From an uncultured Bacteroidales bacterium (GTDB taxonomy: Bacteria > Bacteroidota > Bacteroidia > Bacteroidales > DTU049), in contig CAYRXH010000005.1 of the NCBI GenBank assembly GCA_964428185.1, positions 10,772 through 74,771 on the forward strand: a stretch of DNA of 64,000 nt. Reading direction: 5' to 3'. The position numbers and the translations under genes were made by a program. A model generated the notes under the pieces. That model did no database searches. It was given only the letters and a program-made list of their open reading frames with translations, and was not told the origin of the DNA. This document shows positions 25,840 to 59,139 of the stretch, piece by piece (position 1 is the stretch's first letter; every line of letters starts with the position of its first letter).

Positions 25840-25903
25840 GATTTTTTTTTGGTTATAAATTACATTCCACTGCAATAGTGGCACAACTCTTTATTTTCAA
25901 CTT

Positions 25904-27496: not shown

Positions 27497-27508
27497 AAAT
27501 AAATATAA

Positions 27509-27760: not shown

Positions 27761-27789
27761 ATAATAATTTTTTTAAGTTACATAATTAA

Positions 27790-28217: not shown

Positions 28218-28244
28218 AATGTTTTTTTTACAAAGTTAGTAAAT

Positions 28245-29943: not shown

Positions 29944-30525
29944 TTAAAGATTAAAGAATAATTTTACTTCAAACAATCGTCTTTCATATATTCTACGATT
30001 ATTCATATTAAAACTTGTCCATGAATTAATAATCAAAGATGTATCATAATTTGGAATAATGTTATATTTTTGTTCAATAAGATGATTGTGAAAAGTTGAA
30101 TTACGAATAGCAGATGGTTTAACATTATAGTATAACATTGCCATTGCTAATGCTTTGTTTCCTGTTAAGAAGTATGTTTTAGATACATAAATTATGCGTT
30201 TATGAAAATCTGAATTTAATAATGAATCTGCTTCATGTAAAGAAATATTATCAGGCTTATATGGATATTGATGTCCATATCCTATGTACCAAAATGTATC
30301 ATTTGGTAATTGATATGGTTCTAATCTTAATCCTTCATATTTCTTTATATTTTCAATAGCTAAATCATAATTTACGTTATTAAGAACAAGATTTATATCA
30401 TATTCTTTACTAATTATATTTTTAGGAAGTTCGTTATTTATTAAATATGATATAAAACATAATCCTGAAATAAAAATTGCTATTACTGTAAGGAGAAAAA
30501 ATGAGACAATGTTTTTATTTTCCAT
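29944..30525 (-). CDS. Membrane-anchored GH24 (T4-type) lysozyme
   Basis: IKKYEGLRLEPYQLPNDTFWYIGYGH matches the T4 lysozyme EGLRL..Y.D..G..TIG.GH block. An N-terminal TM segment IVSFFLLTVIAIFISGLCFISYLI is present. I prefer the MENKN start at 30525, which overlaps dnaB by 11 nt. Confidence 0.7.
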   Translation of the reverse strand: MENKNIVSFFLLTVIAIFISGLCFISYLINNELPKNIISKEYDINLVLNNVNYDLAIENIKKYEGLRLEPYQLPNDTFWYIGYGHQYPYKPDNISLHEADSLLNSDFHKRIIYVSKTYFLTGNKALAMAMLYYNVKPSAIRNSTFHNHLIEQKYNIIPNYDTSLIINSWTSFNMNNRRIYERRLFEVKLFFNL

Positions 30526-35436: not shown

Positions 35437-37206
35437 CTATTCTTCTATTAGGGCTTCTACTTTTAATCCACCTTGTGGAATAACTTTTTCTAATAAAACA
35501 ATAGCTTTATTATTAACAGCTAGTTCATGCAAAATCTTTAATCTTTCATTATCAAAACTTTCACCTCTACCAACCAAAAGAATAGGAAAATGAGAATTAA
35601 GTTTTAAAAGTATCTTGCATGCAATTATCATTTGTTTAGATTGAGATATTTGTGTATCAGATAATGGTAAATAATCATTATCATGAAGAACGTAAATACA
35701 ATCATCTTCTATTTTAATATCTTCTAATATAGGATTATTTTTAATTAGTAATTTTTTCTGTTCTCTTAGTGATTCTATCTTTTCATCTAATTCTTGTTTA
35801 GCAATGGAACATTCATAGTATTTCTTTTGTGCTTCTTCATAATCTTGATACTTATAGAGTGTTGAATTTATTAATTTTTCCATTTCCAATGCTTGAAGAT
35901 ATTTTTCTTCTAAGATATCATCAGGAACAAAGTTAAGTTCTGATAGTTCTTTAGTTATTTCATCTTTCTTAATGTTATATCTTCTTTCAATATCAGTTTT
36001 TTCTTCAATTAAGTTATTATATTCATTTTTTAAGTCATTGATAGTTTTATTAATAATATCAATTCTTTGATTGATTTTATTAATAATATCATCATATGAT
36101 GTTTTTATAAGTTCAAGATTATCATTAAGAGATTGCATTTTTATAGAAATAGATTTCTTTTCTTCATATTCTGTTTTTGTCTTTTTTATTTCGTCTTCTA
36201 TTTCTAAAATATCTTTTGATATTAGTTCTTTTTCAGTGTCTGTTATATTTATTTCTTTTAATCTTTTAGAATAGTGTGCTATATCAGTGTATATGGGTGT
36301 TCGTAAATCATAATTAATTTTTTCTTTTTCTGTTAGGTCAAGATATAGATTACGAACATTTTCATCTAGACATTTAAGGAATATTTCGGATTGTTTTTTT
36401 CTGCCTTCTGCTGTTTTTCCCCATGATACAAATTCTTCAGCGGTAAAGTCTTGATATGAGAATATGTCTCTTATAGAAGTTATAGAATGTGTTCTTATAC
36501 CTTTATTATTTACCATTGTAAATTTGACTTTACCATCTTTATGAGCTTCCATTGTCACTGAATATGTATTTCCGTCAGGGGTATCAATAATACCTGTTAT
36601 CAAAGACTCTTGTTCGCCTATGGATACTGGTATTTTTGTATCATTCTTTGCTTTTATTAAACTTTTGAAGGCTTCTAATATAGACGATTTTCCTACTTCG
36701 TTTTGTCCAGATATTATATATACATTACTATTATTCAATTCTACATTTAAGTTCTTTATTAACTTATAGTTCTTAATGTGAAATTTTATATTGAATGTAT
36801 AATCATTATCTGTGGTTGTTTCATTTTCATTAATCAATGATGATGGTATTTCTTCTTTTGAAGGATTATTATTAGAAGAAATACTTTCTTCTTCAGGTGA
36901 GGAAGAAAGTATTTCAGGTGTATCAGGGCTATTGATTACAAGAACATCATTTTCATCAATATTAACCAGTTCAAAATAGGTTTCATCTAATTCTGTATCT
37001 GAGAAATTATTATGTACTATACTGAAATATTTGTTATATTCATCCAGTACATCAATAATATGAATATAAGAATCATATTTTTTACTGTATAGAATCATAC
37101 CTTTTTTAAGAGGCAAGAAAGTTTTAAAATAAAATTCTTCTTTTAATGCTAAGTGATTATTGTCTGTTTCTTTTATTTTTGAGATTTTGACAATTATTGT
37201 TTTCAT
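35437..37206 (-). CDS. SMC/Rad50/SbcC-like coiled-coil ATPase
   Basis: Walker A IISGQNEVGKSS, a long coiled-coil middle region, and C-terminal ILLVGRGESFDNERL (Walker B / D-loop-like). Confidence 0.55.
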   Translation of the reverse strand: MKTIIVKISKIKETDNNHLALKEEFYFKTFLPLKKGMILYSKKYDSYIHIIDVLDEYNKYFSIVHNNFSDTELDETYFELVNIDENDVLVINSPDTPEILSSSPEEESISSNNNPSKEEIPSSLINENETTTDNDYTFNIKFHIKNYKLIKNLNVELNNSNVYIISGQNEVGKSSILEAFKSLIKAKNDTKIPVSIGEQESLITGIIDTPDGNTYSVTMEAHKDGKVKFTMVNNKGIRTHSITSIRDIFSYQDFTAEEFVSWGKTAEGRKKQSEIFLKCLDENVRNLYLDLTEKEKINYDLRTPIYTDIAHYSKRLKEINITDTEKELISKDILEIEDEIKKTKTEYEEKKSISIKMQSLNDNLELIKTSYDDIINKINQRIDIINKTINDLKNEYNNLIEEKTDIERRYNIKKDEITKELSELNFVPDDILEEKYLQALEMEKLINSTLYKYQDYEEAQKKYYECSIAKQELDEKIESLREQKKLLIKNNPILEDIKIEDDCIYVLHDNDYLPLSDTQISQSKQMIIACKILLKLNSHFPILLVGRGESFDNERLKILHELAVNNKAIVLLEKVIPQGGLKVEALIEE

Positions 37207-37376: not shown

Positions 37377-38453
37377 TTATTTTTTGTTTTTGTGGTTATT
37401 TTGTTTAATGGTAAAATTATTATTATTATCAAGAATATATTCAGTATTTGGCAATATATTGTTTTCACCCACATAAACTGTGACAGTCCTAATAACATTA
37501 TACGAATCTCTGTATTCAAGTGATAACATTGAATTATCGCCGCCTTTAACACTCGAACCGATACCACCTTTTAGTTTGGAATTATTGCCACCTGATATGA
37601 TAGAATGGTCACCACTGTTAATAATAGTATCATTTCCACCACTTACTATTGAGCCATAATCTGTTGTAATAAAAGAATAATCACCACCTTGAACTTCTGC
37701 CCAGTTTCTACAAGTAATAACAGATCTATTACCTCCTGTTGCTGTGGATTGCATGCCTCCTGAGATTACAGATTCATTACCACCTGTTATTATTGTGCCA
37801 GAACCACCTGTAATGAATGAATTATTACCTCCTTCAATAAAGGATTTATTACCTCCTGTAATTGTTGAATAGTTTCCACCTTTAACTTTTGACCAGTGAC
37901 CTCCTACGATTACAGAATCATTACCACCTGTAACAGTAGAGCCATTCCCTCCCCTAATAATAGACATGTTGCCGCCAGTTACTTGAGAAAGGTCGCCTCC
38001 TATGACGTTAGAAAAATCACCTCCTTTGATTATAGAATAGTCTCCTCCAACAGCAACTTCTCCGTTACCTACAACAATTGTAGCTCCTATTATACCTATA
38101 TTACCATAGACATTTGCTATAATGTTTGTAGCTGTTTCTCTATCTCCTACATATATTACATTGCCACCTTTAAATTTAACTTTACCATTAAGGTCTATGA
38201 TTCCTTTTTCTTTTACTTCTAATACCATCCATAATGCATCATCGTTTGTATAAAATAAAGTACCATCACCTCGTCCTTTTAAAGCACCGTGCAAACCTTT
38301 GCCAAAAATAGGTGAAGGATTCCAATCAGGTGCTTCTACCCAACCTGACATAGGATATTGAAAATGTTCAAAATTGGAACAATTATTTTTATCATTTGTT
38401 CTTAATACTAATACATGACCTTTTTTTACTTTAAACTCTTTTTCTCTTTTCAT
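37377..38453 (-). CDS. Octapeptide-repeat solenoid protein (22 GGxxSxhx units)
   Basis: Its N-terminal domain is homologous to the 25021..25839 and 38528..39277 products. It has 22 uninterrupted octads (aa 136-311) and the conserved C-terminal cap. Confidence 0.85.
   Translation of the reverse strand: MKREKEFKVKKGHVLVLRTNDKNNCSNFEHFQYPMSGWVEAPDWNPSPIFGKGLHGALKGRGDGTLFYTNDDALWMVLEVKEKGIIDLNGKVKFKGGNVIYVGDRETATNIIANVYGNIGIIGATIVVGNGEVAVGGDYSIIKGGDFSNVIGGDLSQVTGGNMSIIRGGNGSTVTGGNDSVIVGGHWSKVKGGNYSTITGGNKSFIEGGNNSFITGGSGTIITGGNESVISGGMQSTATGGNRSVITCRNWAEVQGGDYSFITTDYGSIVSGGNDTIINSGDHSIISGGNNSKLKGGIGSSVKGGDNSMLSLEYRDSYNVIRTVTVYVGENNILPNTEYILDNNNNFTIKQNNHKNKK
37521..38048 (-). repeat. 22 uninterrupted octapeptide units (GGDYSIIK ... 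GGDNSMLS)
   Basis: Counted in the translation. There are no indels between units. Confidence 0.9.
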
Positions 38454-38527: not shown

Positions 38528-39277
38528 TCAACAATTTAATGAAAAATTATTGTTTATATCTAATGTGTAATATACATTTGGTCTTAGTCCATTTTCTCCA
38601 ACCTTTGCAACAAAAGATTTACCAACAGAATTTTTTAGTATTATGGTAGTATTATTTCCCCCAGATGCTATTGTTCCATAGTCTCCTATTATTATTGAGT
38701 CTTCTCCAACTTTTACTTCACAATATTTATCTGCATATACAACTGAACTGTTACCTCCTGTTATTGTTGAGTTATGACCTCCCATTATAGTTGTATCATC
38801 TCCTCCTTTTAATATAGATTCACCACCTCCTTTTATTAAACAGTTATTACCACCTGTTAAATTTGACATATAACCTCCTGTTATTATTTGAATATCTCCT
38901 GTTGTTGCTTCCAATCCTATTACTCCTATGTTACCATATACATTGGATATAATAGTTGCTGCTGTTCGCATGTTACCAGAATATAATATAGTACCCATTC
39001 TGAAACGTACAAAACCATCATATTCTATTATATCTTGTTCAGATACTTCTAATACTGACCATATTGAATCTTCACTATAATTTAATAAATGTCCATTACC
39101 ACAACCTTTTAACATACCTTCTAAACCACCAATACGTGTTTGTGAATAAAAATTTTCGTCTTCTATAATTCCTAATCTCGGAAATTGAATACCATGACGA
39201 GAACAATTATTTTTGTCATTTGAACATAATACTAATACATGACCTTCTTTTAACTGAATTTTATTTATTGTTTCCAT
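38528..39277 (-). CDS. Octapeptide-repeat solenoid protein (10 units)
   Basis: METINKIQLKEGHVLVLCSNDKNNCS..., octads at aa 134-213, C-terminal cap VGENGLRPNVYYTLDINNNF. Confidence 0.8.
   Translation of the reverse strand: METINKIQLKEGHVLVLCSNDKNNCSRHGIQFPRLGIIEDENFYSQTRIGGLEGMLKGCGNGHLLNYSEDSIWSVLEVSEQDIIEYDGFVRFRMGTILYSGNMRTAATIISNVYGNIGVIGLEATTGDIQIITGGYMSNLTGGNNCLIKGGGESILKGGDDTTIMGGHNSTITGGNSSVVYADKYCEVKVGEDSIIIGDYGTIASGGNNTTIILKNSVGKSFVAKVGENGLRPNVYYTLDINNNFSLNC
38639..38878 (-). repeat. 10 octapeptide units (GGYMSNLT ... GGNNTTII)
   Basis: Read from the translation. Confidence 0.85.
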
Positions 39278-39735: not shown

Positions 39736-39916
39736 AACTCTTATATTTTATGTTATATTATTAATCGGATTTCTATTCTTGATTTTGTTATAAGTAATTT
39801 TATTTAATTTGTTAATGGGTTTTTGTTATTCATATATAATTTCCAAGAAAATTATATAATAATGCAATATTAAGTATTATTATATATATGAAAAACAAAA
39901 TTGGGAAGGAAAGGAT

Positions 39917-39974
39917 TCCCCTGTCAACGAGGGCAAGTGCATAAAAATGTAAATGCTTGATAATCAACAGGGGA
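39917..39974. repeat. Imperfect extended hairpin (8-bp outer stem TCCCCTGT/ACAGGGGA plus an inner GCAAG.GCAT/ATGCTTG pairing)
   Basis: Read directly. It is relatively GC-rich within an AT-rich spacer between leftward genes. Confidence 0.6.
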
Positions 39975-40070
39975 AAATATGATGAGGATAAATGTTAAAA
40001 TCGACAAAAAGTGATAACATTGTATCTCAAAATAGGGGGTTTAGAAAAATTAGTAGAAAGAAATAGTTAA

Positions 40071-40289
40071 TTAGTCATGAATCAGGTGAAAGGGGATAAC
40101 AGCTTCACATGCAGAGATGATTTTGATATCGTCTTCGAGTTGAAGAAGGATGTTGATATCGTCGTTAGTCATGTCCATAAAAGCGATATTAGCAATATGA
40201 TATGCATTTATGGTGTCATGATCTGATGAACAAGAAAGATTACTTTCTTTTAGATCATGTTTGATTTGGAAGTTTTGTTTTGTTTTCAT
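40071..40289 (-). CDS. Small acidic hypothetical protein (72 aa)
   Basis: ORF with 12 Asp/Glu against 5 Lys. Confidence 0.4.
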   Translation of the reverse strand: MKTKQNFQIKHDLKESNLSCSSDHDTINAYHIANIAFMDMTNDDINILLQLEDDIKIISACEAVIPFHLIHD

Positions 40290-40354
40290 GGTATTATCTT
40301 TTTTTATTATTGAATTAAGGAATAAATGATAAATGAACTAATGTGATAAAGAAA

Positions 40355-40448
40355 TGTTATATGTAAGATGAATAAAGTAGTATTATCGCAGATATGTGAA
40401 CTAAGCGTTACAGAAATAATACAGACTTATTGCATCTTACATATAACA
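40355..40448. repeat. 16-bp perfect inverted repeat with a 62-nt loop
   Basis: TGTTATATGTAAGATG (40355-40370) / CATCTTACATATAACA (40433-40448). Confidence 0.85.
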
Positions 40449-40501
40449 AATTAAATAGAGCCGCATCTTATCTTATGATAAGAAAATGAAATGTTTCTTT
40501 T

Positions 40502-40526
40502 AAAAAAACCCCCGAAGGGGCTTTTC
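40502..40526 (-). terminator. Intrinsic terminator (CCCC-UUCG-GGGG followed by a U7 run on the - strand)
   Basis: The - strand reads GAAAAGCCCCTTCGGGGGTTTTTTT immediately after the stop of the 40528..40893 gene. Confidence 0.75.
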
Positions 40527-40527
40527 A

Positions 40528-40893
40528 TTAATTGACCCGAAATTCCACAAATCTTCCTTTCTTGACAACAAGACTTCCATTGACGGGTATCAGTTTCCCT
40601 TCAGTATCTTCAGTCAAGACTTTCCTGCTGTAAAAACTCAGTAAAGCTCCATCCATCTCCATATTGAGCCAAAAATAGTCGTTTCCATTGACATTCTTCT
40701 TGACATCGGAGATACTTGCATTACTGTACAAATAAGTACCATCCTTCAAACGTAAGTCCATCTGAGTTGTCCCATCAATACCACACTGAGGGATCATTAC
40801 CTGATTGATTGGCTGTTGTGGTACAGCCTGATTTGCAAACTGTGCATAATTTCCATAATTTGCAAATTGTCCATTTGTTACTTGTGTTTCCAT
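40528..40893 (-). CDS. Hypothetical protein (121 aa), GC-richer than its surroundings
   Basis: ORF with a Q/N-rich N-terminus (QFANYGNYAQFANQ). A terminator lies directly downstream. Confidence 0.6.
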   Translation of the reverse strand: METQVTNGQFANYGNYAQFANQAVPQQPINQVMIPQCGIDGTTQMDLRLKDGTYLYSNASISDVKKNVNGNDYFWLNMEMDGALLSFYSRKVLTEDTEGKLIPVNGSLVVKKGRFVEFRVN

Positions 40894-40961
40894 GTTTTTA
40901 TGATTTTATTGTTAACCAAAGGTTAGGGGGGTGCAGGGGGGATACTCCGTAAGTCCGTTTG

Positions 40962-40982
40962 AGTTGAGCATTAGTTGAGCAT
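40962..40982. repeat. Tandem AGTTGAGCAT x2 (11-bp period) next to G6-TGCA-G6 (40926-40941)
   Basis: Read directly in the divergent intergenic region 40894-41349. Confidence 0.8.
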
Positions 40983-41285
40983 ATGGCGTTATATATTTTC
41001 ATTTATATTATATCAATTATATCTATCATATTGTGGTTTTGTTTTATTCATATATTATTTATTATATATTTCAATTATTATATATATGTAAAGTTTCACT
41101 ACGTTGTTTGGTGTAAAGTTTAAGATTTCCCGACTTTAAAATCAGGAAATTCCGTCCGCATACCATTTATTACTCACTTGCGGAAATAGAACATGAAGTC
41201 ATTAAATCAATTTGCATTTGGAAAGTGGTACGAACTTAGCCCTAAAATTTTTTCAGAAAACCACTTCAGTATAAAAATAAAGTAT

Positions 41286-41293
41286 TAACTTTG
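41286..41293 (+). promoter_or_regulatory. Bacteroidota-type -7 promoter element (TAACTTTG) for the rightward ASCH cassette
   Basis: TAACTTTGCAAAAGG lies 57 nt upstream of the ATG at 41350. Confidence 0.45.
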
Positions 41294-41349
41294 CAAAAGG
41301 AATTTAAATCAAAGGAAGATATTAAAGTAAACAATTATTCAGTCGGAAA

Positions 41350-42324: not shown

Positions 42325-42987
42325 TTAAAAGTTGTAATTAACATAGCAATCAGATTTTAAGAATACCCAGAAGTAAGCATGATATTTACGTGCGTGAATT
42401 TGTTTTTTCCATTTAGAGCCGTTAAAGGCATTAATTCTATTTTTTGCAATAAGTATAAAAAGGTCTTTAGGATAAAATCCTATTTTTAAAGCCATATTCA
42501 TAATTAGAACATGTGAAAAATGATTTTTACCACTTGCGACCACATCTTGGCATTTAAAGACGAGTATTCCATTGCTTTGGAGTATTCTATAAATTTCTTT
42601 AATTGAGTTGTAATAATGATTTTTAAGTTCATCAAAAGAATTATAGGACTCAAATCTTTTAGCAATAATACTACTACCCATTTTATTATTTTTATATGTA
42701 CTACCTGCAATAGTGAAAGGAGGGTCAAACATAACACTTTTCATCGATTGATTTTCAAAAGGTAGGTTAGAGCTATCAGCTTTTAGAACATTATTGTTAT
42801 GAGGATATAAATCTGTTTTATATATAGGTTTAGGTAAATTTTTCCAGAATTGTCCTTTACTATATGTACAATCGAGGTCAAATTTTTCAATATTATAGAG
42901 ATGCATTATATTTCTAATTATTTCTTCATTGCTAAAAGATATTGATATAATTGGTTTAAATCCGAATAAAGTATTTTTAATTTCCAT
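42325..42987 (-). CDS. DNA methyltransferase (N6-adenine/N4-cytosine type, DPPF motif)
   Basis: SVMFDPPFTIAG is a motif IV DPPF. It is followed by NGILVFKCQD. Length 220 aa. Confidence 0.55.
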   Translation of the reverse strand: MEIKNTLFGFKPIISISFSNEEIIRNIMHLYNIEKFDLDCTYSKGQFWKNLPKPIYKTDLYPHNNNVLKADSSNLPFENQSMKSVMFDPPFTIAGSTYKNNKMGSSIIAKRFESYNSFDELKNHYYNSIKEIYRILQSNGILVFKCQDVVASGKNHFSHVLIMNMALKIGFYPKDLFILIAKNRINAFNGSKWKKQIHARKYHAYFWVFLKSDCYVNYNF

Positions 42988-43984: not shown

Positions 43985-44215
43985 CTATTTTTTTAGAATT
44001 CTAAAAACCTCGTCTGTCGTTGTCCCTATGTATTCAGCAATTTGTTCCACCCACTCTGCCTTGAAGATGCGTACATCTTCGTTCATGAGTTTGCGGAATT
44101 GTTCACGCCCCGAAGGGGTGTTGCTGTATAGCATACGCCACAATTCTCTCTTGCACGTCCGCCTGTCTATGCCTCTGTCTCGGCAATAACTTACTATATT
44201 TCTGATTTTGTACAT
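43985..44215 (-). CDS. Small helix-turn-helix-like protein (76 aa)
   Basis: The C-terminal VEQIAEYIGTTTDEVFRILKK looks like an HTH. GC-rich. Confidence 0.4.
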   Translation of the reverse strand: MYKIRNIVSYCRDRGIDRRTCKRELWRMLYSNTPSGREQFRKLMNEDVRIFKAEWVEQIAEYIGTTTDEVFRILKK

Positions 44216-44292
44216 AATGATGTATTTATTGTTAAACCATAAATTAAATTCAATTTTTTATATTTATCTTTCATACCAATACGCAATGTTTA

Positions 44293-45237
44293 TTATGCAT
44301 AAATATTATTAACATATTTTTCTGCTAAGAAAATATAATCATTATACTCTATTATTTGTTTTTTTGTATAACCTTTTTCTTTTCCAATTTTTTTAATATT
44401 TGTTTTCCAAAAATCAATTGAATATATATGACATCCTATTTTAATTTCTGAATGAGAGGCTAAGTTAAAAAAGTCCTTACTGCCGTGTATTAACAGAGGA
44501 GAAACATTCCACATGTCGTTTTTTATTAGAGCATCACCGTAAACATTAGCAAAGCCACAAATTATTGCATTACCATAAACACTGGCATTTCCATATATTC
44601 TTGCGTTTCCATATATACATGCATTATCAAAAACACATGCATAACCAAAGATTTTAGCATTGTCATATACTTTCGTATCCCCATATACTTTTGCATTTTC
44701 AGAAATATTTACATCCCCAAATACTCTTGCACTGCCAAATATTCTTGCATTATCTGATATTCTTGCGTTATCTAATAATCTTGAATTATCATAAATTTTT
44801 GCATTATCAAGTATTATTACATTGCCAAAAACATTTGCATTTCCTGTAATTTTTACATTACCCGATACTTTTGCATTATCATATACATTCGCATTATCAT
44901 AAACACAAGCATTACCTGAAATTCTAGCATTTCCAAAAATAACAGCATTATTAAATATTTCTACATCATCGTATATTTTTGCACTTTCAAATACTTTGGC
45001 ATTCCCAAAGATTTTTACATTGTCATATATCTTTGCATTACCTGATATCGAAGCATTGTCATATACACATGCATTATCTGTTACCCATGAGTTATCATTT
45101 TGATTTAAATTATTTTCTGATTGTATCCATCCGCCTTTATCACCTTTTTTAATATCACAAAAATCTCGAATTGCTTCAATTTGTATCAATGTTATACCAT
45201 TGACCTCTTTTGTTGTGTTTGTTAGTTTATACTTCAT
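44293..45237 (-). CDS. Hexapeptide-repeat (left-handed beta-helix type) protein, first gene of the leftward block
   Basis: 31 uninterrupted hexads (TDNACV YDNASI SGNAKI ... YGDALI, aa 53-238). They are flanked by a 52-aa N-terminal and a 76-aa C-terminal non-repeat domain. Confidence 0.8.
   Translation of the reverse strand: MKYKLTNTTKEVNGITLIQIEAIRDFCDIKKGDKGGWIQSENNLNQNDNSWVTDNACVYDNASISGNAKIYDNVKIFGNAKVFESAKIYDDVEIFNNAVIFGNARISGNACVYDNANVYDNAKVSGNVKITGNANVFGNVIILDNAKIYDNSRLLDNARISDNARIFGSARVFGDVNISENAKVYGDTKVYDNAKIFGYACVFDNACIYGNARIYGNASVYGNAIICGFANVYGDALIKNDMWNVSPLLIHGSKDFFNLASHSEIKIGCHIYSIDFWKTNIKKIGKEKGYTKKQIIEYNDYIFLAEKYVNNIYA
44524..45081 (-). repeat. 31 hexapeptide units, consensus (Y/F)(G/D)NA(K/R)(I/V)
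   Basis: Counted in the translation. Confidence 0.9.
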
Positions 45238-45340
45238 TTAATTTTGTTGTTTTAAACATTTTTAATTTATTATGGTTGTTTTTGTATTTATTAGGATATG
45301 CTTTTATATTGTGAGGTTTTTAAAATAATTAATTACAACA

Positions 45341-45372
45341 CAAAGATACAATAAAATATAAGGCAATACAAA
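45341..45372 (-). promoter_or_regulatory. Bacteroidota-type promoter for the leftward block (-7 TATCTTTG, -33 TTTG)
   Basis: The - strand reads TATCTTTG (45341-45348). TTTG (45369-45372) lies 20 nt upstream. The motif sits about 100 nt upstream of the ATG at 45237. Confidence 0.5.
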
Positions 45373-45470
45373 TATTATTATGTTAAAATAGTGTTAAAAA
45401 ATATGAGTAAATAATTATGTTTTTATGTTGTAGTTAAAATAAAGGTAAAAACAAAGTTTGGTTAGTTAGA

Positions 45471-45486
45471 TAATATTTAAATATTA
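45471..45486. repeat. 16-bp perfect A/T palindrome TAATATTTAAATATTA
   Basis: Read directly. Confidence 0.9.
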
Positions 45487-45512
45487 ATTAATTTAAATTT
45501 AAAAATCAATGC

Positions 45513-45583
45513 TTATAATATATAATAATTATATAATTATATTTATTATATAATTATTATAATATATAATTATATATAAATTA
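45513..45583. repeat. 71-nt tract of pure A/T built from TATAAT/TATAATTAT variants
   Basis: No G or C between 45513 and 45583. Confidence 0.9.
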
Positions 45584-45714
45584 GATATTATAATAATATC
45601 TAGTTATAATATCTAGTATAATATCTAGTATAATATCTAGTTATAATATCTAGTATAATATCTAGTTATAATATCTAGTTATAATATCTAGATCTAGTAT
45701 CTAGTATTATAATC
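45582..45714. repeat. Iteron array: a 21-bp palindrome, then seven 12/13-bp units CTAGT(T)ATAATAT, ending in the CTAGATCTAG palindrome
   Basis: CTAG starts at 45600, 45613, 45625, 45637, 45650, 45662, 45675, 45688, 45694 and 45701. Every full unit contains TATAAT. An A12 run follows at 45715-45726. Confidence 0.9.
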
Positions 45715-45839
45715 AAAAAAAAAAAATTAAATAATTAATGAGATGTTGTATTAAGGTGCATAAATACAAAAAATAAAAAAAAGAATAAAAAAATCAAAAT
45801 ATGATTAAAATAAATTTGGTAATAAAAAAAAAATGTTTT

Positions 45840-45846
45840 TACTTTG
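45840..45846 (+). promoter_or_regulatory. Near-consensus Bacteroidota -7 element (TACTTTG, one nt short of TAnnTTTG) for the rightward block
   Basis: TTTTTACTTTGCAAATGG lies 34 nt upstream of the ATG at 45880. It shares the TTTGCAAA core with the elements at 41286 and 47435. Confidence 0.35.
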
Positions 45847-45879
45847 CAAATGGATATGAACAATAAAATTTAAATAAGT

Positions 45880-46413
45880 ATGAAAGTTTATGCAGCAAGA
45901 GGATATGTAGAATCTTTACATTATGAAGATATAGAGTTTATAGATACAAAATCTGGGACAGAAACAATAAAAACAATTAAAAAGTTAGAATGTAGAATAA
46001 GAACTATTGAAGATGATATAATACTTCCTATTACATTTTGGGGGCAAAAATCTATGGATTTGTTTTTAGATATTCAAGAAGGTTCACCAGTTGTTTGTTC
46101 TTTTGCTATTGCATCAAAATATTACAAAGATAGATATTATATTAACCTTAAAGGATATAAAATAGAACGTTATCTTGGATTAACTGCTGATGAAAAAGAA
46201 GAAAGAAGTGCTAAGCATAGACAACAGATTGCGGATAACAAGAAAGAAGTGGAAAACAGAACACTTGAATATATAGACCCTATATATGGTAACAAAACTG
46301 CACAAGAAATAGCTGAAATGATGAATGATACAGAAAATTGGGAAAGTGAAGATGATTTGAAATATAAACAAAATACTGTAAACAAACATGATGATGAAAA
46401 ATTACCATTTTAA
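45880..46413 (+). CDS. ssb: Single-stranded DNA-binding protein (OB fold with an acidic C-terminal LPF tip)
   Basis: ITFWGQKSMDLFLDIQEGSPVVCSFAIASKYY parallels the SSB v.vwgk.Ae....l.KGs.v.veG.l....w. The protein ends ...HDDEKLPF, like the canonical DDDIPF tail. Confidence 0.55.
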   Translation: MKVYAARGYVESLHYEDIEFIDTKSGTETIKTIKKLECRIRTIEDDIILPITFWGQKSMDLFLDIQEGSPVVCSFAIASKYYKDRYYINLKGYKIERYLGLTADEKEERSAKHRQQIADNKKEVENRTLEYIDPIYGNKTAQEIAEMMNDTENWESEDDLKYKQNTVNKHDDEKLPF

Positions 46414-46438
46414 TAAACAGATATATAATTAAAATATT

Positions 46439-46780
46439 ATGAATATGAACAAAGTTATTTTAAGAGAAAATGTAATATTGGGAGAACTAATAGATGTAAA
46501 ACCTAAAGATAGTACAATTATTTTGCCTAATGAAAAACAAAAGGATAAATATTTTTTTGATGAACATCCAATTCAAGTTAAAGTAAAATATGTTGGTATA
46601 AACAAAGAAACATATTCTTTTTTTGATGGAAAGACTGGCACACCATATAAAATAAAACCAGGTGATATTTTATATCTTGATAGATTTCCTTCCGAAAACG
46701 AATATGTACTTTTGAATAAAAATATATATGTAAAAGTTTTAGTTGGTAATATTTTATGTGTTATTTCTGAAAAAGAATAA
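46439..46780 (+). CDS. Possible GroES/Gp31-like co-chaperonin
   Basis: KVILRENVILGELIDVKPKDSTIILPNEKQ and IKPGDILYLDRF...YVKVLVGNILCVI loosely align with GroES (RPLHDRVIVKR...GGIVL; VKVGDIVIF...ILAIV). Confidence 0.3.
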   Translation: MNMNKVILRENVILGELIDVKPKDSTIILPNEKQKDKYFFDEHPIQVKVKYVGINKETYSFFDGKTGTPYKIKPGDILYLDRFPSENEYVLLNKNIYVKVLVGNILCVISEKE

Positions 46781-46845
46781 AACATTTTACCTATATTGCA
46801 ACCATAATGAAATAAATTTAGTATTAATCAAAAAATAAAGTTAAT

Positions 46846-47280
46846 ATGAAAAATCTTACAAAAGCAGAATTACTACAAAAATTGGTAGTTGAATTATCTA
46901 AAAATAGTTTATATTCAAAATCAATTTTTAAAAAATATGAAAAAATAGGATTAGAGATTCGCAATCTTGACACTAAATTAGTTGATATTGAAAATAAATT
47001 AAAAAAAGAAATTGTAGATGTTAATCCTGAAATGACAGTAGAAAAGATAAATGAATATGTGAAAACAAATAAAATTCCATCAAAACAAAGACCAATTATA
47101 GAAAAGATGATTAGTGAAGTCTATAAAGAAATGCATAATCATACAGTTAATATCCCAAAATTTAATTGGATAGATTTAAGAAAAATGAATGTAGGTATGG
47201 TAGATTTGTTGAAAAGTTATGGATTAGTAGATGAAAGGAAATTTATGTTTTTATTTAAAACTCATAATCGAGTCATATAG
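46846..47280 (+). CDS. Hypothetical protein (144 aa)
   Basis: ORF with a strong terminator directly downstream. Confidence 0.55.
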   Translation: MKNLTKAELLQKLVVELSKNSLYSKSIFKKYEKIGLEIRNLDTKLVDIENKLKKEIVDVNPEMTVEKINEYVKTNKIPSKQRPIIEKMISEVYKEMHNHTVNIPKFNWIDLRKMNVGMVDLLKSYGLVDERKFMFLFKTHNRVI

Positions 47281-47323
47281 AAAATCCTATTGTTCATATC
47301 CTTATTTACATGTCGGATTTTCA

Positions 47324-47352
47324 AGGAGTGTAATTTTACACTCCTTTTTTTA
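47324..47352 (+). terminator. Intrinsic terminator inside the rightward block
   Basis: AGGAGTGTA (47324-47332) / TACACTCCT (47337-47345), a 4-nt loop, then TTTTTTT. Confidence 0.8.
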
Positions 47353-47409
47353 TTCTTATTCTGAAAATAAATTATATTTTTTATTATAATTTAATTTTTT
47401 TTAAAAAAA

Positions 47410-47442
47410 TTTGTTTATACAAAATTATGTTTTATATATTTG
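47410..47442 (+). promoter_or_regulatory. Bacteroidota-type promoter (-33 TTTG, -7 TATATTTG)
   Basis: TTTG at 47410-47413, a 21-nt spacer, TATATTTG at 47435-47442, then the ATG at 47470. Confidence 0.55.
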
Positions 47443-47469
47443 CAAAAAGAACATTATATAACTTGGAAT

Positions 47470-47796
47470 ATGGAATATAAGAAAAATTGGATAGAAGAAG
47501 GTATGGAGGTTGCCCACAAAGATAATCCTCAACAAAAGTTGATTGTTAATAGAATTATAAGACAAAATAAACCAATAAAAGTTCAAGAAAATAATGATTG
47601 GGTTACAGTTACAAAATCATTTGTTATAGCTGTTGAGGTGCATTGGTGGGAGAAAGATTTAGATACAGGTCAAAACAAATTACAAACTGCAAAGTTCCAT
47701 ACAAGATTGCTAATCCCTTGGCAAGTAGCTATGGAGTCTTTTACTAAAGGGGTTCATGTAATCGAAAATTTTATCAAAAGAATAAATAAAATATGA
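47470..47796 (+). CDS. Hypothetical protein (108 aa)
   Basis: The ORF track starts at a TTG (47440) that lies inside the promoter -7 element. The ATG at 47470 (MEYKKNW) is more plausible. Confidence 0.55.
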   Translation: MEYKKNWIEEGMEVAHKDNPQQKLIVNRIIRQNKPIKVQENNDWVTVTKSFVIAVEVHWWEKDLDTGQNKLQTAKFHTRLLIPWQVAMESFTKGVHVIENFIKRINKI

Positions 47797-51724: not shown

Positions 51725-52318
51725 ATGCTAAGATATAATGAGAATAATTTAGTTGAATTTATTTATCCTGGAGAAACACTACATGCTTCTGTGGAATTGA
51801 TAAATGAATATAAAGATAATACTGAATTATTACAGAAAGTTTTGGTTTATGTGTTTAATGTATATTCTCCTAATAGTATTTATTCTGAATTTACCCCAGA
51901 GCAAAGAAAAGAACGTGTGTGTTTGGATTTGTTTGATAATAAGATTAAAAAAGAATATTTTGAAAGTAAAACGATTAAATCATTTGTTGATTTGTTTGTA
52001 GAGATGTCAATGACAGCAGTTCAAAGAGATCATGAAAGGTGTAAAAGAGATATTGAAGATTTACATGAATATATATCATCCATTCAATTTGTAAAAAAAC
52101 AAAAGATAAAAAGAAAGATCGTATTTAAAGATGAAGAATTAGGTAGGGAATTTGAAAAAGAAATTGATCTTGTAATTGATATAGATAATTCAGAAGAAAA
52201 GATTAAAGCAATATCTGTTAGAGAAAAATTATACAGTATAGATCAAAGATTGAGAAAACTTGTAGAAGCAGAAAAGATAGAAAAAGAATTAAGTGCAAAA
52301 ACAATGTTTGAACAATAA
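51725..52318 (+). CDS. Candidate small terminase subunit
   Basis: The call rests on position only. It is immediately upstream of TerL and its stop overlaps the TerL start. Confidence 0.3.
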   Translation: MLRYNENNLVEFIYPGETLHASVELINEYKDNTELLQKVLVYVFNVYSPNSIYSEFTPEQRKERVCLDLFDNKIKKEYFESKTIKSFVDLFVEMSMTAVQRDHERCKRDIEDLHEYISSIQFVKKQKIKRKIVFKDEELGREFEKEIDLVIDIDNSEEKIKAISVREKLYSIDQRLRKLVEAEKIEKELSAKTMFEQ

Positions 52319-54375
52319 TGATTTTTGTTGATACAAAAAGATTTCAACCTGTTATTTATGGAAATGATCTTCCACATAGGTATGATTTGTTTCATCATAA
52401 TTATTTAGATATTCCAAACACTGAACCAAGATATATAAAGTATATTAAAGATAATAATATTATAGTAGATAGGACGTGGTGGACAAAACAATATGAAAGA
52501 TGTATTAATGGTTTTACTATTCCAAATGTTGTTGTGAAAGGTGGTGATGCTATAAGAGATGGAATTGATGCTATATGGTTTGATGATAGAATATATCTCC
52601 CACAATTAGATTTTACAATAAGCAATAGAGATATATGGATAACTGGACGGATGTACTTTTATCTTAATTTTTGGAATATAAAAAGAGTTGATTTGAAAAC
52701 CAAAAGAAAAATGATAGGACCTCCACGATTTACATCTTTATCATGGAAAAATTGGATAATAAGAGAGTTGTCGGTACAAAATATGAAAGATTTGTTATGG
52801 GTTAAAAGACGACAATGTGGTTTATCAGAAGAAACAGCAGCAGATATTGCATATGATTATTTATTTATAAAGGATTCTCAAAATGCAATAGTTGCTGGTG
52901 AAGAAAAATATTCTGTTAATACTTTTAAAATGGTTAAACGTGGGATTGAGAGATTAATTAATACACAATTTTACAAATGGAGTAGTATAAATAATAACGA
53001 ATTGTTAAAGTCAAAATATTTTGGTTCTGAAATATATTGTAGAACGGCAAAAGATAATGAACAGGTTTTATCTGGTTTATCTCCAACTAAAGTAATTTAT
53101 GAAGAATCTGGTATTTGGAAAAAAGGATTAGTAAGAACAACGGCAGAATTTGTAAATCAATCATTGGAAGCAGAGGGAATTAAAACAGGACAAAATGTTT
53201 TTATATCTACAGCTGGTGATATAAATGATTCTGTATCTGATATAGAGTATATGTGCTATAATCCTGACGAATTTAATTTGATGAAATTTAAAAATATTTA
53301 TGAAAAAGAACAAAGTGCAAGATATGCAGATGTGGCTTGTTTTATCCCTGGATGGGAATTTGAAATTATAGATGAAGATGGTAATACTCTTAGAAAAGAA
53401 AGTGAAGAAAAGTTAATTGTAGATAGAACATCAAAATCTTCTAAAGATAGATTCCGTGCAATTACAATGAAACCTTTTTATTTATCAGAATTATTTAGTA
53501 ATATTACAGGAGGATATTTTGGAGAAGAAATTATATTTAATCTTAATGAAAGAAAATCTCATTTATATACACATAAAGCATTAATAGTTGCACGCTATTA
53601 CAGGTTAGAATGGAATGATCCAAGAGATTGGAGCAAGGGAGTAACAGCAATAGAAGATGAAGAAGGTGAATTTTATATTATGGAACATCCAATGACTGGT
53701 AAAGATGGATTGGTTTATGAAAATTTATATAAGGCTGGTACAGATAGTTATGATAAGGATGAAGCAAATGAGAGTAATTCTAAAGGTTCTTTATATGTAT
53801 TTAAGGGTTTTTTAAATGCAAATCATTCATATAAAAAGTGGTGTGCAAGGCTTACACAAAGACCTAGAATAGACGAAGGAGGTTCATATAAATTTTATGA
53901 AAATACAATAAAATTAGGAATATACTATAATTTTATTAATCTTATTGAATGGTCAAATATTCGTATCTTTGATTTTTATAAAAAGAATGGAATGGAGTAT
54001 ATATTGAAAGAACGTCCAGATATGGTTATATCAAGATATGTATTGAAATCAAATACTACAAATACATATGGTATAGACCCTTCAACAAAACCACATTGGT
54101 TGGCTATATTAAAAGATTATTTATCAGTAAAAGAAAATATTGATAAAATGGATGATATAGAACAAATAGATGCATTTGCACGTTTTAAATATGATCCGAC
54201 TGGGAAAAAGTATAATTGTGATATTACTATAGCCTCTGCATTATCATTAGTTTGTTATGAAGATGAGACAGAATTACAAACAATAGAACAGGAAGATGAG
54301 AAGATACGAGAAATAATTGGAGTTATGGTTTATACAGAAGATCAATATGGAAATATTAGTCAATTATTAAGATAA
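52318..54375 (+). CDS. terL: Terminase large subunit
   Basis: VKRRQCGLSEETAADI is a Walker A variant (RQ.G.S/T). KVIYEESG is Walker B-like. Length 685 aa, located upstream of the portal. Confidence 0.8.
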   Translation: MIFVDTKRFQPVIYGNDLPHRYDLFHHNYLDIPNTEPRYIKYIKDNNIIVDRTWWTKQYERCINGFTIPNVVVKGGDAIRDGIDAIWFDDRIYLPQLDFTISNRDIWITGRMYFYLNFWNIKRVDLKTKRKMIGPPRFTSLSWKNWIIRELSVQNMKDLLWVKRRQCGLSEETAADIAYDYLFIKDSQNAIVAGEEKYSVNTFKMVKRGIERLINTQFYKWSSINNNELLKSKYFGSEIYCRTAKDNEQVLSGLSPTKVIYEESGIWKKGLVRTTAEFVNQSLEAEGIKTGQNVFISTAGDINDSVSDIEYMCYNPDEFNLMKFKNIYEKEQSARYADVACFIPGWEFEIIDEDGNTLRKESEEKLIVDRTSKSSKDRFRAITMKPFYLSELFSNITGGYFGEEIIFNLNERKSHLYTHKALIVARYYRLEWNDPRDWSKGVTAIEDEEGEFYIMEHPMTGKDGLVYENLYKAGTDSYDKDEANESNSKGSLYVFKGFLNANHSYKKWCARLTQRPRIDEGGSYKFYENTIKLGIYYNFINLIEWSNIRIFDFYKKNGMEYILKERPDMVISRYVLKSNTTNTYGIDPSTKPHWLAILKDYLSVKENIDKMDDIEQIDAFARFKYDPTGKKYNCDITIASALSLVCYEDETELQTIEQEDEKIREIIGVMVYTEDQYGNISQLLR

Positions 54376-54384
54376 TCATTAATT

Positions 54385-56958: not shown

Positions 56959-56964
56959 AAAATA

Positions 56965-56997
56965 TTTGTTTTGTATTATTAAATATTTATATCTTTG
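56965..56997 (+). promoter_or_regulatory. Bacteroidota-type promoter (-33 TTTG, -7 TATCTTTG)
   Basis: TTTG at 56965-56968, a 21-nt spacer, TATCTTTG at 56990-56997, then the ATG at 57015. Confidence 0.5.
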
Positions 56998-57014
56998 TAA
57001 AAAAAAAATTAATT

Positions 57015-58100: not shown

Positions 58101-58179
58101 ATATAGAGTAATAAATTTTTTACCAATATAATACAAATTAGTTAATAATAATATATTTTAACTTTAAAATATTATAGCT

Positions 58180-59124: not shown

Positions 59125-59139
59125 TTAAAAGTAATAATT

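What the first reader, a model, noticed from the sequence alone, without database searches (positions are those of the whole stretch)
45238..45879. Divergent control region with an A/T-only tract, palindromes and seven CTAG/TATAAT iterons: candidate replication origin or promoter array
Seen: the 640-bp gap between the leftward and rightward blocks contains several elements. A leftward consensus promoter (45341-45372). A 16-bp palindrome (45471-45486). A 71-nt tract with no G or C (45513-45583). A 21-bp palindrome TAGATATTAT-A-ATAATATCTA (45582-45602). Seven head-to-tail 12/13-bp units CTAGT(T)ATAATAT in the spacing pattern 13,12,12,13,12,13,13. A terminal CTAGATCTAG palindrome, an A12 run, and a rightward near-consensus promoter (45840). 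Ten CTAG tetranucleotides fall within about 105 bp. The SSB gene is the first gene to the right. Established: iterons next to an easily melted A/T tract are the classic architecture of plasmid and phage origins. Every unit also contains a TATAAT hexamer, so it could instead be a binding array for an RNAP or a regulator. Inference: this is an origin of replication and/or a regulatory switch between the two transcription directions.
Basis: partly seen in the sequence, partly recalled or inferred. Interest (0 to 1): 0.65.

Follow-up and report, generated by a model that had tools for sequence, protein, structure and literature searches.

The report
Candidate replication origin, crAss-like phage
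Between the two outward-facing gene blocks of a very divergent crAss-like phage lies a real, non-coding array of eight identical 11-bp sites next to the most easily melted DNA in the window; this is the classic layout of a replication origin, but its function is unproven and no related genome could be found to test conservation.

Summary
Window 45593-45691 holds 8 exact copies of ATAATATCTAG at 13,12,12,13,12,13,13-bp spacing. One inverted copy abuts the array and forms the 21-bp palindrome. Ten of the window's 50 CTAGs lie here, although CTAG is avoided elsewhere (O/E 0.43). The adjacent 71-nt A/T-only tract is part of the least stable 100 bp in the 64 kb (z 4.65).

The window is a distant crAss-like phage: Crass-type capsid, TerL about 25% identical to Crassvirales, and a 5400-aa protein with the DFDID RNA-polymerase motif. 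The two flanking promoters are Bacteroidetes-type (TTTG-N20-TAnnTTTG). They face outward and sit 220 and 223 bp from the palindrome centre. The TATAAT hexamers therefore do not form a promoter array.

The motif occurs in no other intergenic region, so this is a single-locus cis element. The best reading (about 0.4) is an origin made of iterons plus an unwinding element.

- Against a bidirectional origin: GC skew at 4-fold sites keeps one sign across the junction.
- There are no DnaA boxes and no recognisable initiator gene.
- No relative carrying this junction was found.

Rivals are a regulatory switch array, a packaging or terminus site, a centromere and a neutral repeat. This is an ordinary kind of element in a new lineage. 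Interest is moderate to low.

The parts
44293..45237 (-). First gene of the leftward block: 314-aa beta-solenoid (hexapeptide/YdcK/bactofilin-like) protein
   Evidence: Pfam PF18836/PF00132, PHROG 7964. Belongs to a broad repeat family with no close orthologue.
43985..44215 (-). 76-aa small helical protein in the leftward operon, with a weak XRE/Cro-like HTH fold. It is a candidate DNA binder; this is inference only.
   Evidence: AF2 pLDDT 87.7, five helices. Foldseek top hits are PrgX-N, CapH-N, C.BclI, ClgR, SinR and 434 repressor, at E 0.17-2 and TM about 0.5. No sequence-family hit.
45341..45372 (-). Leftward Bacteroidetes-type promoter TTTG-N20-TATCTTTG
   Evidence: Exact match to TTTG-N18-22-TAnnTTTG. 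Four of the 7 window matches lie just upstream of gene starts in the right orientation.
45466..45476 (-). Degenerate inverted copy of the core (TTAGATAATAT, 2 mismatches) on the far side of the A/T tract
   Evidence: 5 matches at up to 2 mismatches outside the array against 0.86 expected, P 0.0025.
45471..45486 (.). 16-bp A/T palindrome TAATATTTAAATATTA, within a 37-nt A/T-only tract (45470-45506)
   Evidence: Not significant on its own.
45513..45583 (.). 71-nt A/T-only tract, the candidate DNA-unwinding element. It has roughly 11-bp internal periodicity and a 17-bp-stem hairpin potential at 45521-45561.
   Evidence: Longest A/T-only run in the window. 45512-45611 is the least stable 100 bp in the 64 kb, z 4.65. 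TRF period 11. ssDNA fold z -5.8.
45581..45591 (-). Inverted core copy (TTAGATATTAT, 1 mismatch). With the first direct core it forms the 21-bp palindrome 45582-45602, centred at 45592.
45593..45691 (+). Array of 8 exact direct cores ATAATATCTAG with T or TT spacers (units of 12 or 13 bp)
45688..45713 (.). Array terminus: CTAGATCTAG palindrome, two further ATCTAG hexamers, and a degenerate inverted copy CTAGTATTATAAT. Hairpin potential at 45679-45712.
45715..45726 (+). A12 run opening a 165-bp A-rich stretch (AT skew +0.35) with repeated A-tracts upstream of the rightward promoter
45815..45850 (+). Rightward near-consensus Bacteroidetes-type promoter: TTTG (45815-45818), N20, TTACTTTGCAAA (45839-45850)
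   Evidence: Sequence. The same -7 box, TAACTTTGCAAA, lies at 41286 upstream of gene 41350.
45880..46413 (+). First gene of the rightward block: 177-aa SSB-like OB-fold protein with an acidic C-terminal tail ...HDDEKLPF
   Evidence: PF11325 at 27.7 bits against a cut-off of 27, and PHROG 4932 'SSB' at E 1.3e-5. Tail sequence. A low-confidence AF2 model (N-terminal pLDDT 60-81) hits mostly bacterial SSB, PriB and RPA.

Best explanation
The region is a single-copy, non-coding site where proteins assemble on the DNA. It is most likely the phage's origin of replication.

Proposed mechanism. Every step is inferred and none was shown here.
1. A sequence-specific phage protein coats the 8 contiguous ATAATATCTAG sites. 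Spacing of 12-13 bp places successive sites about 50-85 degrees around the helix, so the protein would spiral along the DNA rather than sit on one face.
2. A dimer form could bind the head-to-head pair that makes the 21-bp palindrome at the array's left edge.
3. The filament abuts the 71-nt A/T-only tract, the least stable duplex in the window, which opens.
4. Opening is helped by negative supercoiling generated between the two outward-firing promoters, which lie 220 and 223 bp from the palindrome centre.
5. The SSB-like protein encoded immediately to the right and the phage DnaB-type helicase then take over.
6. Neutral-site skew suggests that forks travel mainly rightward (unidirectional, rolling-circle or end-initiated replication) rather than bidirectionally.
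For: - Eight exact direct repeats plus inverted copies at the edges.
- Adjacent A/T tract that is the stability minimum of 64 kb, z 4.65, with strong hairpin or cruciform potential, z -5.8.
- The element is non-coding, with stop codons in every frame.
- It lies between two outward-facing host-type promoters without overlapping either.
- The motif is confined to this locus: all 40 other CTAGs are in coding sequence and none is in another intergenic region. This favours a one-per-genome cis site over a regulon operator.
- CTAG is avoided elsewhere (O/E 0.43), yet 10 copies are kept here.
- The neighbours are replication genes: SSB-like on the right, and VRR-NUC, DnaB and a clamp-like protein on the left.
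- Published precedents: Ceduovirus origins lie in the non-coding region between divergent early and late blocks (PMC7150918). SaPI origins are 6-12 short iterons around an A/T-rich centre (PMC9371898). An origin is predicted at the head of the forward-strand block of p-crAssphage (PMC10983915).
- Strand-fixed 4-fold-site skew is compatible with a rightward unidirectional origin.
Against: - The skew shows no polarity switch at the junction, so the classic bidirectional signature is absent. The skew does not locate any origin.
- No DnaA box within 1 mismatch.
- No recognisable initiator (Rep, RepL, O-like or primase-helicase) next to the array or elsewhere in the window.
- Units are 12-13 bp, contiguous and out of helical phase, unlike the 17-22-bp phased iterons of classical theta origins. 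Such arrays are at least as typical of operator or centromere sites.
- Perfect identity of the copies is what recent slippage would give.
- The divergent junction of phi14:2, the best-studied crAss-like phage, has no such array.
- No relative with this junction was found, so conservation is untested.
Confidence: 0.42

Rival explanations
1. The array is a transcriptional control array. A small phage DNA-binding protein, for example the 76-aa XRE-like HTH encoded 1 kb to the left, polymerises on the direct repeats and the palindrome. It sets the balance or timing of the two divergent operons, in the way P2 Cox, 186 Apl, omega of pSM19035 or phi29 p4/p6 act in their switch regions. It has no role in replication.
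For: - The array sits in the only control region between the two major blocks, almost exactly midway between the two promoters.
- Contiguous short repeats (12-13 bp, 8 or more copies, mixed orientation at the edges) are typical of filament-forming regulators (established knowledge).
- A small HTH-like protein is encoded in the leftward operon.
Against: - The array does not overlap either promoter. It ends 104 bp from the rightward -33 box, and the A/T tract begins 141 bp from the leftward one.
- No other copy of the motif lies in any other intergenic region.
- The extreme A/T-only tract and hairpins have no obvious role in this model.
- The HTH assignment is weak (E 0.17-2), and nothing links that protein to this sequence.
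Confidence: 0.25
2. The region is the genome terminus or packaging-recognition region. The physical ends (direct terminal repeats) or the terminase recognition site lie here, as in N4- and T7-type phages. In those phages the ends fall between outward-facing gene blocks and short repeat arrays flank the terminal repeat. P1 pac, with its seven methylatable hexamers, is another model.
For: - The junction is divergent, as it would be in a circularised map of an N4-like linear genome (established knowledge).
- The strand-fixed neutral skew fits end-initiated unidirectional replication.
- A clustered palindromic 4-mer and an orphan methyltransferase 2.6 kb away recall P1 pac.
- A linear form with terminal repeats is proposed for p-crAssphage (PMC10983915).
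Against: - The array is 6 kb upstream of the putative small and large terminase genes rather than next to them.
- No long duplicated segment is visible.
- Nothing in the sequence marks an end.
- The short-read contig breaks are explained by the repeat itself.
Confidence: 0.12
3. The array is a neutral or nearly neutral minisatellite that expanded by slippage in an A/T-rich promoter-spacer region. The A/T tract is simply UP-element-like upstream DNA for the two promoters.
For: - The 8 cores are identical. The only variation is a T/TT spacer, as expected of recent slippage.
- The A/T tract itself looks like decayed copies of the unit (ATAATATATAA twice).
- The region upstream of TerL is not conserved even in the 79% relative.
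- The phi14:2 junction has no array.
Against: - The genome otherwise avoids CTAG (O/E 0.43) and other restriction-type palindromes, so a 10-CTAG cluster should be selected against if it were useless.
- The layout is organised: inverted copies at both edges, a central palindrome equidistant from both promoters, and flanking hairpins.
- It is the only strong non-coding tandem repeat in 64 kb.
Confidence: 0.12
4. The array is a centromere-like partition site for a plasmid-like carrier state, in the manner of ParR/parC or omega/parS arrays.
For: - The architecture (8-10 contiguous short repeats) resembles type Ib/II centromeres (established knowledge).
- A phage-plasmid lifestyle has been proposed for p-crAssphage (PMC10983915).
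Against: - No ParA, ParM or ParB-type gene is detectable in the window.
- The array is not at the promoter of a par-like operon.
Confidence: 0.05
5. The array is an assembly artefact: a collapsed, expanded or chimeric join.
For: Short-read assemblies of the same phage break inside the array.
Against: - Two independent assemblies reproduce the left flank through the inverted copy and the first unit and a half (L009).
- They also reproduce the right flank from the last three units onward (L008), base for base.
- The element (about 120 bp) is shorter than a typical read.
Confidence: 0.03

Closest known systems
Iteron-plus-unwinding-element origins of plasmids and phages (lambda ori, P1 oriR, pPS10/pSC101/R6K-type oriV)
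   Same: Multiple direct repeats of one binding sequence lie next to an A/T-rich region that is the local stability minimum. An inverted pair made of the same sequence sits at the edge of the array, as in the Rep-dimer operator of iteron plasmids. A gene begins just downstream.
   Different: Units are 12-13 bp, contiguous and out of helical phase, rather than 17-22 bp at about two turns. There are no DnaA boxes. There is no recognisable Rep gene, and the downstream gene is SSB-like. Function is untested.
SaPI origins (Staphylococcus pathogenicity islands; PMC9371898)
   Same: Short iterons in 6-12 copies are associated with an A/T-rich segment, and some copies point in opposite directions.
   Different: In SaPIs the iterons are 5-6 nt, split about evenly on both sides of the A/T region, and lie immediately downstream of the rep helicase gene. 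Here 9 copies lie on one side and only one degenerate copy on the other, and no self-loading Rep is adjacent.
Ceduovirus (Lactococcus phage c2) origin (PMC7150918)
   Same: The origin lies in the non-coding region that separates two divergently transcribed gene blocks, and it is flanked by promoters.
   Different: The c2 origin works through a non-coding transcript from an early promoter that reads into the region. Here both mapped promoters read outward, and no tandem iteron array is described for c2.
Predicted origin of p-crAssphage, Carjivirus communis (PMC10983915)
   Same: It is a crAss-like phage, and the origin is predicted at the head of the forward-strand (replication) block, at a change of gene orientation.
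   Different: That prediction rests on OriFinder, skew and nanopore coverage, and lies upstream of repL. This phage has no RepL and is only about 25% identical in TerL. Its neutral-site skew does not switch at the junction.
Operator or centromere arrays bound by small dimeric proteins (omega heptads of pSM19035, ParR/parC of R1, P2 Cox boxes, 186 Apl sites)
   Same: Seven to ten or more contiguous short repeats, some inverted, lie in a control region, and a small candidate DNA-binding protein is encoded nearby.
   Different: Those arrays overlap or abut the promoters they control, or they accompany a partition ATPase. Here neither holds.
Methylation-site clusters in oriC, P1 oriR and P1 pac (GATC)
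   Same: A 4-bp palindrome that is rare in the genome is concentrated in one cis element, and a DNA methyltransferase is encoded nearby.
   Different: The palindrome here is CTAG. The specificity of the phage methyltransferase is unknown. No SeqA-like system is implied.

Membership tests
Iteron-type theta origin | Three or more direct repeats of a specific binding sequence | tested here: met
   8 exact cores ATAATATCTAG at 45593-45691.
Iteron-type theta origin | Adjacent A/T-rich DNA-unwinding element | tested here: met
   45512-45611 is the least stable 100 bp in the 64 kb, z 4.65.
Iteron-type theta origin | Cognate initiator (Rep) gene adjacent to or containing the iterons | tested here: not met
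   No Rep, RepL, O-like or primase-helicase family hit in the flanking genes or anywhere in the window with Pfam, PHROGs or NCBIfam. An unrecognisable initiator cannot be excluded.
Iteron-type theta origin | Iterons of about 17-22 bp spaced in helical phase | tested here: not met
   Units are 12 or 13 bp and contiguous.
Iteron-type theta origin | Host DnaA boxes | tested here: not met
   No TTATCCACA match within 1 mismatch in 45238-45879.
Iteron-type theta origin | Strand-composition polarity switch at the origin (bidirectional forks) | tested here: not met
   4-fold-site GC skew is positive on the + strand in all 12 bins. G/(G+C) is 0.64 in + strand genes and 0.67 in - strand genes.
Iteron-type theta origin | Supports autonomous or phage-dependent replication | not testable with these tools
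   Requires cloning, marker-frequency analysis or 2D gels.
SaPI-type origin | Iterons on both sides of the A/T region, at least two per side, in opposite orientation, downstream of rep | tested here: not met
   Only one degenerate copy (45466-45476) lies left of the A/T tract, and no rep gene lies upstream.
Ceduovirus-type transcription-activated origin | Non-coding region between divergent early and late blocks | tested here: met
   642-bp gap between genes 44293-45237 (-) and 45880-46413 (+).
Ceduovirus-type transcription-activated origin | Promoter producing a non-coding transcript through the origin | tested here: inconclusive
   The two consensus promoters read outward. No inward promoter was identified, and no RNA data are available.
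Sigma-70-type promoter cluster | -10 hexamers paired with -35 hexamers at 16-18 bp, enriched over chance | tested here: not met
   10 sites against 18.7 +/- 4.3 in shuffles. Only 2 sites touch the array edge. The genome uses TTTG/TAnnTTTG promoters.
Partition centromere (ParR/parC, omega/parS) | Partition NTPase and centromere-binding protein genes adjacent | tested here: not met
   No ParA, ParM or ParB family hit in the window.
Genome terminus / direct terminal repeat | Read-start pile-up and 2x coverage, or a duplicated terminal segment | not testable with these tools
   No read data are available. Contig breaks in the Logan assemblies are explained by the repeat.
Crassvirales (identity of the genome) | Crass-type capsid, portal and TerL, plus a giant virion protein with the DFDxD RNAP motif | tested here: met
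   PF23898 Crass_capsid. TerL, portal and MCP PHROGs. TerL is about 25% identical to Crassvirales records. DFDID at residue 4164 of the 5400-aa ORF.

The most novel reading that the evidence does not exclude
This crAss-like lineage shows no DNA polymerase in the 64 kb examined. It may start replication from a new type of origin in which a phage protein forms a continuous spiral filament on contiguous CTAG-centred 12/13-bp sites and opens the adjoining A/T tract. That would recruit the host replisome without DnaA boxes. Firing might be gated by methylation of the ten clustered CTAGs by the phage's orphan methyltransferase, in a genome that otherwise purges CTAG. The same element could double as the early/late switch.
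Probability: 0.08. Interest if true: 0.65.

Novelty: new member of a known kind. Interest (0 to 1): 0.36.

Why it matters
I am not aware of any Crassvirales origin that has been mapped experimentally (own knowledge). The only published proposal I found, for p-crAssphage, rests on computation and coverage. This element is a compact (about 250 bp), sharply defined candidate that could be tested directly by cloning, footprinting and marker-frequency analysis.

The strand-fixed neutral-site skew found alongside it suggests unidirectional replication in this lineage. That bears on how these abundant phages copy and package their DNA.

If the element proves to be a regulatory array or a terminus instead, it would still mark the central control point of the genome. 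As a kind of element it is classical, and no new principle is needed to explain it.

Tried and rejected
**Searches for relatives carrying the junction**
- Megablast of 44000-47500 against phage records: no match.
- Exact array pattern in IMG/VR: no match.
- SSB-like protein: no homologue in IMG/VR, in phage records, or in the 5.8-billion-protein set other than itself.
- 588-aa neighbour: no relative in IMG/VR and only remote hits in the protein set. L011, fetched through one of those hits, is unrelated.
- TerL relatives at 79% identity (L001, L003, L004) sit on contigs of about 11 kb that stop short of the junction. L003 loses synteny upstream of the 101-aa gene.
- Methyltransferase relatives L012 and L013 are unrelated phages. 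VRR-NUC is generic.
- The beta-solenoid protein gives only repeat-family hits at 40-50% identity.
- A TerL-profile scan found relatives at 37-47% identity (L217, L222, L223). None has a strand switch or array within reach.
- Both genome-contig scans were empty.

**A generic search for ATCTAG arrays** in IMG/VR returned 120 or more unrelated arrays. The two inspected differed: L199's lies inside an ORF and L107's is intergenic. None shares genes with this phage beyond one weak hit, so the search was dropped as uninformative.

**Comparison with other crAss-like phages**
- The phi14:2 divergent junction has no comparable array.
- The p-crAssphage record is not in the collection.
- Azobacteroides phage has a different gene order.

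**Features tested and not found**
- Sigma-70 promoter array: rejected.
- DnaA boxes: none.
- tRNA or Rfam families in the window: none.
- Coding potential of the array: rejected, because TAG occurs in every unit on both strands.
- The other long gaps were inspected as alternative origin sites. 27497-28501 shows no comparable repeat array or A/T-only tract and was not analysed further. 39736-41349 has only weak A/T repeats.

**Untested impressions.** My readings that the 113-aa protein is GroES-like and the 169-aa protein HU-like got no support from Pfam or PDB sequence searches. I do not claim them.
Full report
**What is there**

- In the register ATAATATCTAG there are eight exact direct copies at 45593-45691, spaced 13,12,12,13,12,13,13 bp. 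The units differ only by a T or TT spacer.
- A ninth copy, inverted and with one mismatch (45581-45591), abuts the first direct copy. Together they make the 21-bp palindrome 45582-45602.
- The right end decays into CTAGATCTAG, two more ATCTAG hexamers and a degenerate inverted copy (45688-45713). An A12 run follows at 45715-45726.
- Ten of the window's 50 CTAGs lie within 105 bp.
- To the left is a 71-nt tract with no G or C (45513-45583). It is the longest such tract in the window, and a 37-nt one precedes it.
- Nearest-neighbour stability puts 45512-45611 as the least stable 100 bp in the 64 kb (z 4.65; the next is 3.05).
- As single-stranded DNA, 45500-45725 folds far better than shuffles (z -5.8). 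Hairpins form in the A/T tract (45521-45561) and at the array's right end (45679-45712).
- Degenerate copies of the core also occur outside the array: 5 at up to 2 mismatches against 0.86 expected, P 0.0025. One is an inverted copy on the far side of the A/T tract, and two are CTAG-less copies inside it.
- The 16-bp palindrome alone is not beyond chance, but the number of palindromes is.

**Is it an artefact?**

Contigs from two independent short-read assemblies of the same phage (Logan, SRR11582162 and SRR11582163) match the window base for base up to and into the array from both sides, and then break inside it. A k-mer assembler is expected to break there. The element is therefore real, but its exact copy number is not independently confirmed.

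**What genome is this?**

The window belongs to a distant crAss-like phage on a 77.8-kb contig.

- It has a Crass-type capsid protein.
- Its terminase, portal and capsid match PHROG families.
- Its TerL is only about 25% identical to Crassvirales records.
- A 5400-aa ORF carries DFDID, the catalytic motif of the phi14:2 virion RNA polymerase.

The leftward block (25-45 kb) holds DnaB, a clamp-like protein, an SbcC-like ATPase, VRR-NUC and a methyltransferase. No DNA polymerase was recognised in the window.

The rightward block opens with a 177-aa SSB-like protein and runs on into the lysis-like and structural genes. The SSB assignment rests on:
- DUF3127, just above its cut-off, and a PHROG 'SSB' family hit;
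- a C-terminal acidic ...DDEKLPF tail;
- a low-confidence model whose best matches are SSB, PriB and RPA.

**Promoters**

- 45372 to 45341 is an exact TTTG-N20-TATCTTTG.
- 45815-45850 is TTTG-N20-TTACTTTGCAAA. It shares its -7 box with TAACTTTGCAAA upstream of gene 41350.
- Four of the seven exact matches to the full motif in the window sit just upstream of gene starts in the right orientation.
- Full sigma-70-type sites are fewer than in shuffles (10 against 18.7).

The TATAAT hexamers in the units are therefore not a promoter array. Both real promoters fire outward. Their -33 boxes lie 220 and 223 bp from the palindrome centre (45592). The array and A/T tract occupy the middle and overlap neither promoter.

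**Tests bearing on function**

1. *Skew.*
   - The raw cumulative GC skew has a local minimum at the junction. This comes from gene orientation: first codon positions are G-rich in the coding sense in both blocks.
   - At 4-fold degenerate sites the + strand is G-rich in all 12 bins. G/(G+C) is 0.64 in + strand genes and 0.67 in - strand genes.
   - The neutral bias is therefore strand-fixed across at least 64 of 78 kb, with no reversal at 45.6 kb. This argues against a bidirectional origin signature here. It fits unidirectional, rightward replication, whose start point the skew cannot locate.
2. *DnaA boxes.* None.
3. *Proteins.* No initiator, partition or RepL-type protein was recognisable anywhere in the window. 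A 76-aa ORF in the leftward operon models confidently as five helices and weakly resembles XRE/Cro-type HTH domains.
4. *Distribution of the motif.* It is unique to this locus. All 40 other CTAGs are in coding sequence.
5. *Palindrome avoidance.* Outside the array the genome avoids restriction-type palindromes: CCGG 0 of 9.7 expected, GGCC 0.17, CGCG 0.30, GCGC 0.36, CTAG 0.43, GATC 0.46. A cluster of ten CTAGs is therefore unlikely to be tolerated without a reason.

**Comparative evidence**

This could not be obtained.

- Neither flanking gene has a useful homologue.
- The closest relatives (TerL 79%) are on 11-kb contigs that end before the junction. They already differ in gene content upstream of window position 49648.
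- More distant relatives (37-47%) show no strand switch within 10 kb upstream of TerL.
- The genome-contig scans were empty.
- The divergent junction of phi14:2 has no such array, so the feature is not universal in crAss-like phages.

**Interpretation**

The anatomy is that of a single-copy site where proteins assemble next to an unwinding element. I rank a replication origin first, at about 0.42. Three published cases support this ranking:
- Ceduovirus origins lie in the non-coding region between divergent early and late blocks (PMC7150918).
- SaPI origins consist of 6-12 short iterons around an A/T-rich centre (PMC9371898).
- An origin is predicted at the head of the forward-strand block of p-crAssphage (PMC10983915).

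Negative supercoiling between two outward-firing promoters would favour opening of the central A/T tract. This is an inference from the twin-domain model.

Weighing against an origin, or at least against a classical one:
- the missing skew switch;
- the missing DnaA boxes and initiator gene;
- the short, contiguous, out-of-phase units, which suit operator or centromere arrays at least as well;
- the perfect identity of the copies, which is what recent slippage would produce.

The rivals are a regulatory filament array for the early/late switch (0.25), a terminus or packaging site (0.12), a neutral minisatellite (0.12), a centromere (0.05) and an artefact (0.03).

**Verdict**

The 'origin and/or switch' interpretation is reasonable but unproven. 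The 'promoter array' alternative is not supported.

As a kind of element it is classical. Its value is as a compact, testable candidate for an origin in the Crassvirales, for which the only published origin proposal I found is computational.

Noticed in passing
window 1-64000 (4-fold degenerate sites of 48 ORFs): Neutral-site GC skew is strand-fixed. The + strand is G-rich at 4-fold sites in genes of both orientations (G/(G+C) 0.64 and 0.67, all 12 bins positive). This suggests unidirectional, rightward replication of this phage.
   Followed up: yes
window 125-16327: A 5400-aa ORF carries DFDID at residue 4164, the catalytic motif of the crAss-like virion RNA polymerase. This is more than twice the 2180 aa I recall for phi14:2 gp66 (own knowledge, not checked here). 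It also contains an 18-bp coding repeat (5378-5523, EDEGKE about 8 times).
   Followed up: partly
window 57398-57589 (in gene 57015-58100): A near-perfect 15-bp repeat, 12.8 copies, encodes (TEPTV/TEPTI)n. It looks like a proline/threonine linker in a protein encoded between portal and capsid, and is likely length-variable.
   Followed up: partly
whole window outside 45581-45714: There is strong avoidance of restriction-type palindromes: CCGG 0 observed of 9.7 expected, GGCC O/E 0.17, CGCG 0.30, GCGC 0.36, CTAG 0.43, GATC 0.46. An orphan N6/N4 DNA methyltransferase is encoded at 42325-42987. Its closest relatives are in unrelated phages (L012, L013), which suggests a mobile gene.
   Followed up: partly
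window 25021-45237: No DNA polymerase or primase was recognised in the 64 kb, although DnaB (30515-31933), a clamp-like protein (28502-29932) and an SbcC-like ATPase (35437-37206) are present. Yutin et al. 2021 (PMC7886860) note that a few non-gut crAss-like phages lack a polymerase.
   Followed up: partly
window 25021-25884, 37377-38453, 38528-39277, 44293-45237: Several repeat-rich proteins recur in the leftward block. The first three share PHROG 18079 (two of them also DUF7666). The fourth, 44293-45237, is a hexapeptide/beta-solenoid protein in different PHROGs. Function unknown.
   Followed up: no
window 39736-41349: There is a second divergent junction (gene 40528-40893 leftward, gene 41350 rightward). 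It has a G-rich stretch (about 40920-40945), A/T repeats at 41007-41085, and a 792-bp apparently non-coding gap at 39736-40527. It has no Rfam or tRNA hit and could hold an unannotated RNA or early promoters.
   Followed up: partly
window 24255-25020: The 'convergent' gap is not empty. A terminator-like hairpin lies at 24283-24306. An 81-aa ORF (24398-24643, - strand) has its own exact TTTG/TAnnTTTG promoter (24677-24708). A 95-aa ORF lies at 24718-25005. Logan contigs from both samples end at about 24832.
   Followed up: partly
L222 (IMGVR_UViG_3300002703_000097) and L223 (IMGVR_UViG_2721755344_000003): In distant relatives (TerL 37-46%) the 10 kb upstream of TerL is all on one strand. In L222 a 2309-aa giant gene ends 1.7 kb upstream of TerL. 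The leftward replication block of this phage is therefore not at that position in those genomes.
   Followed up: partly
window 52318-60579: The gene order is TerL, portal, then capsid. It differs from the order in Azobacteroides phage ProJPt-Bp1, which is TerL, capsid, then portal.
   Followed up: no
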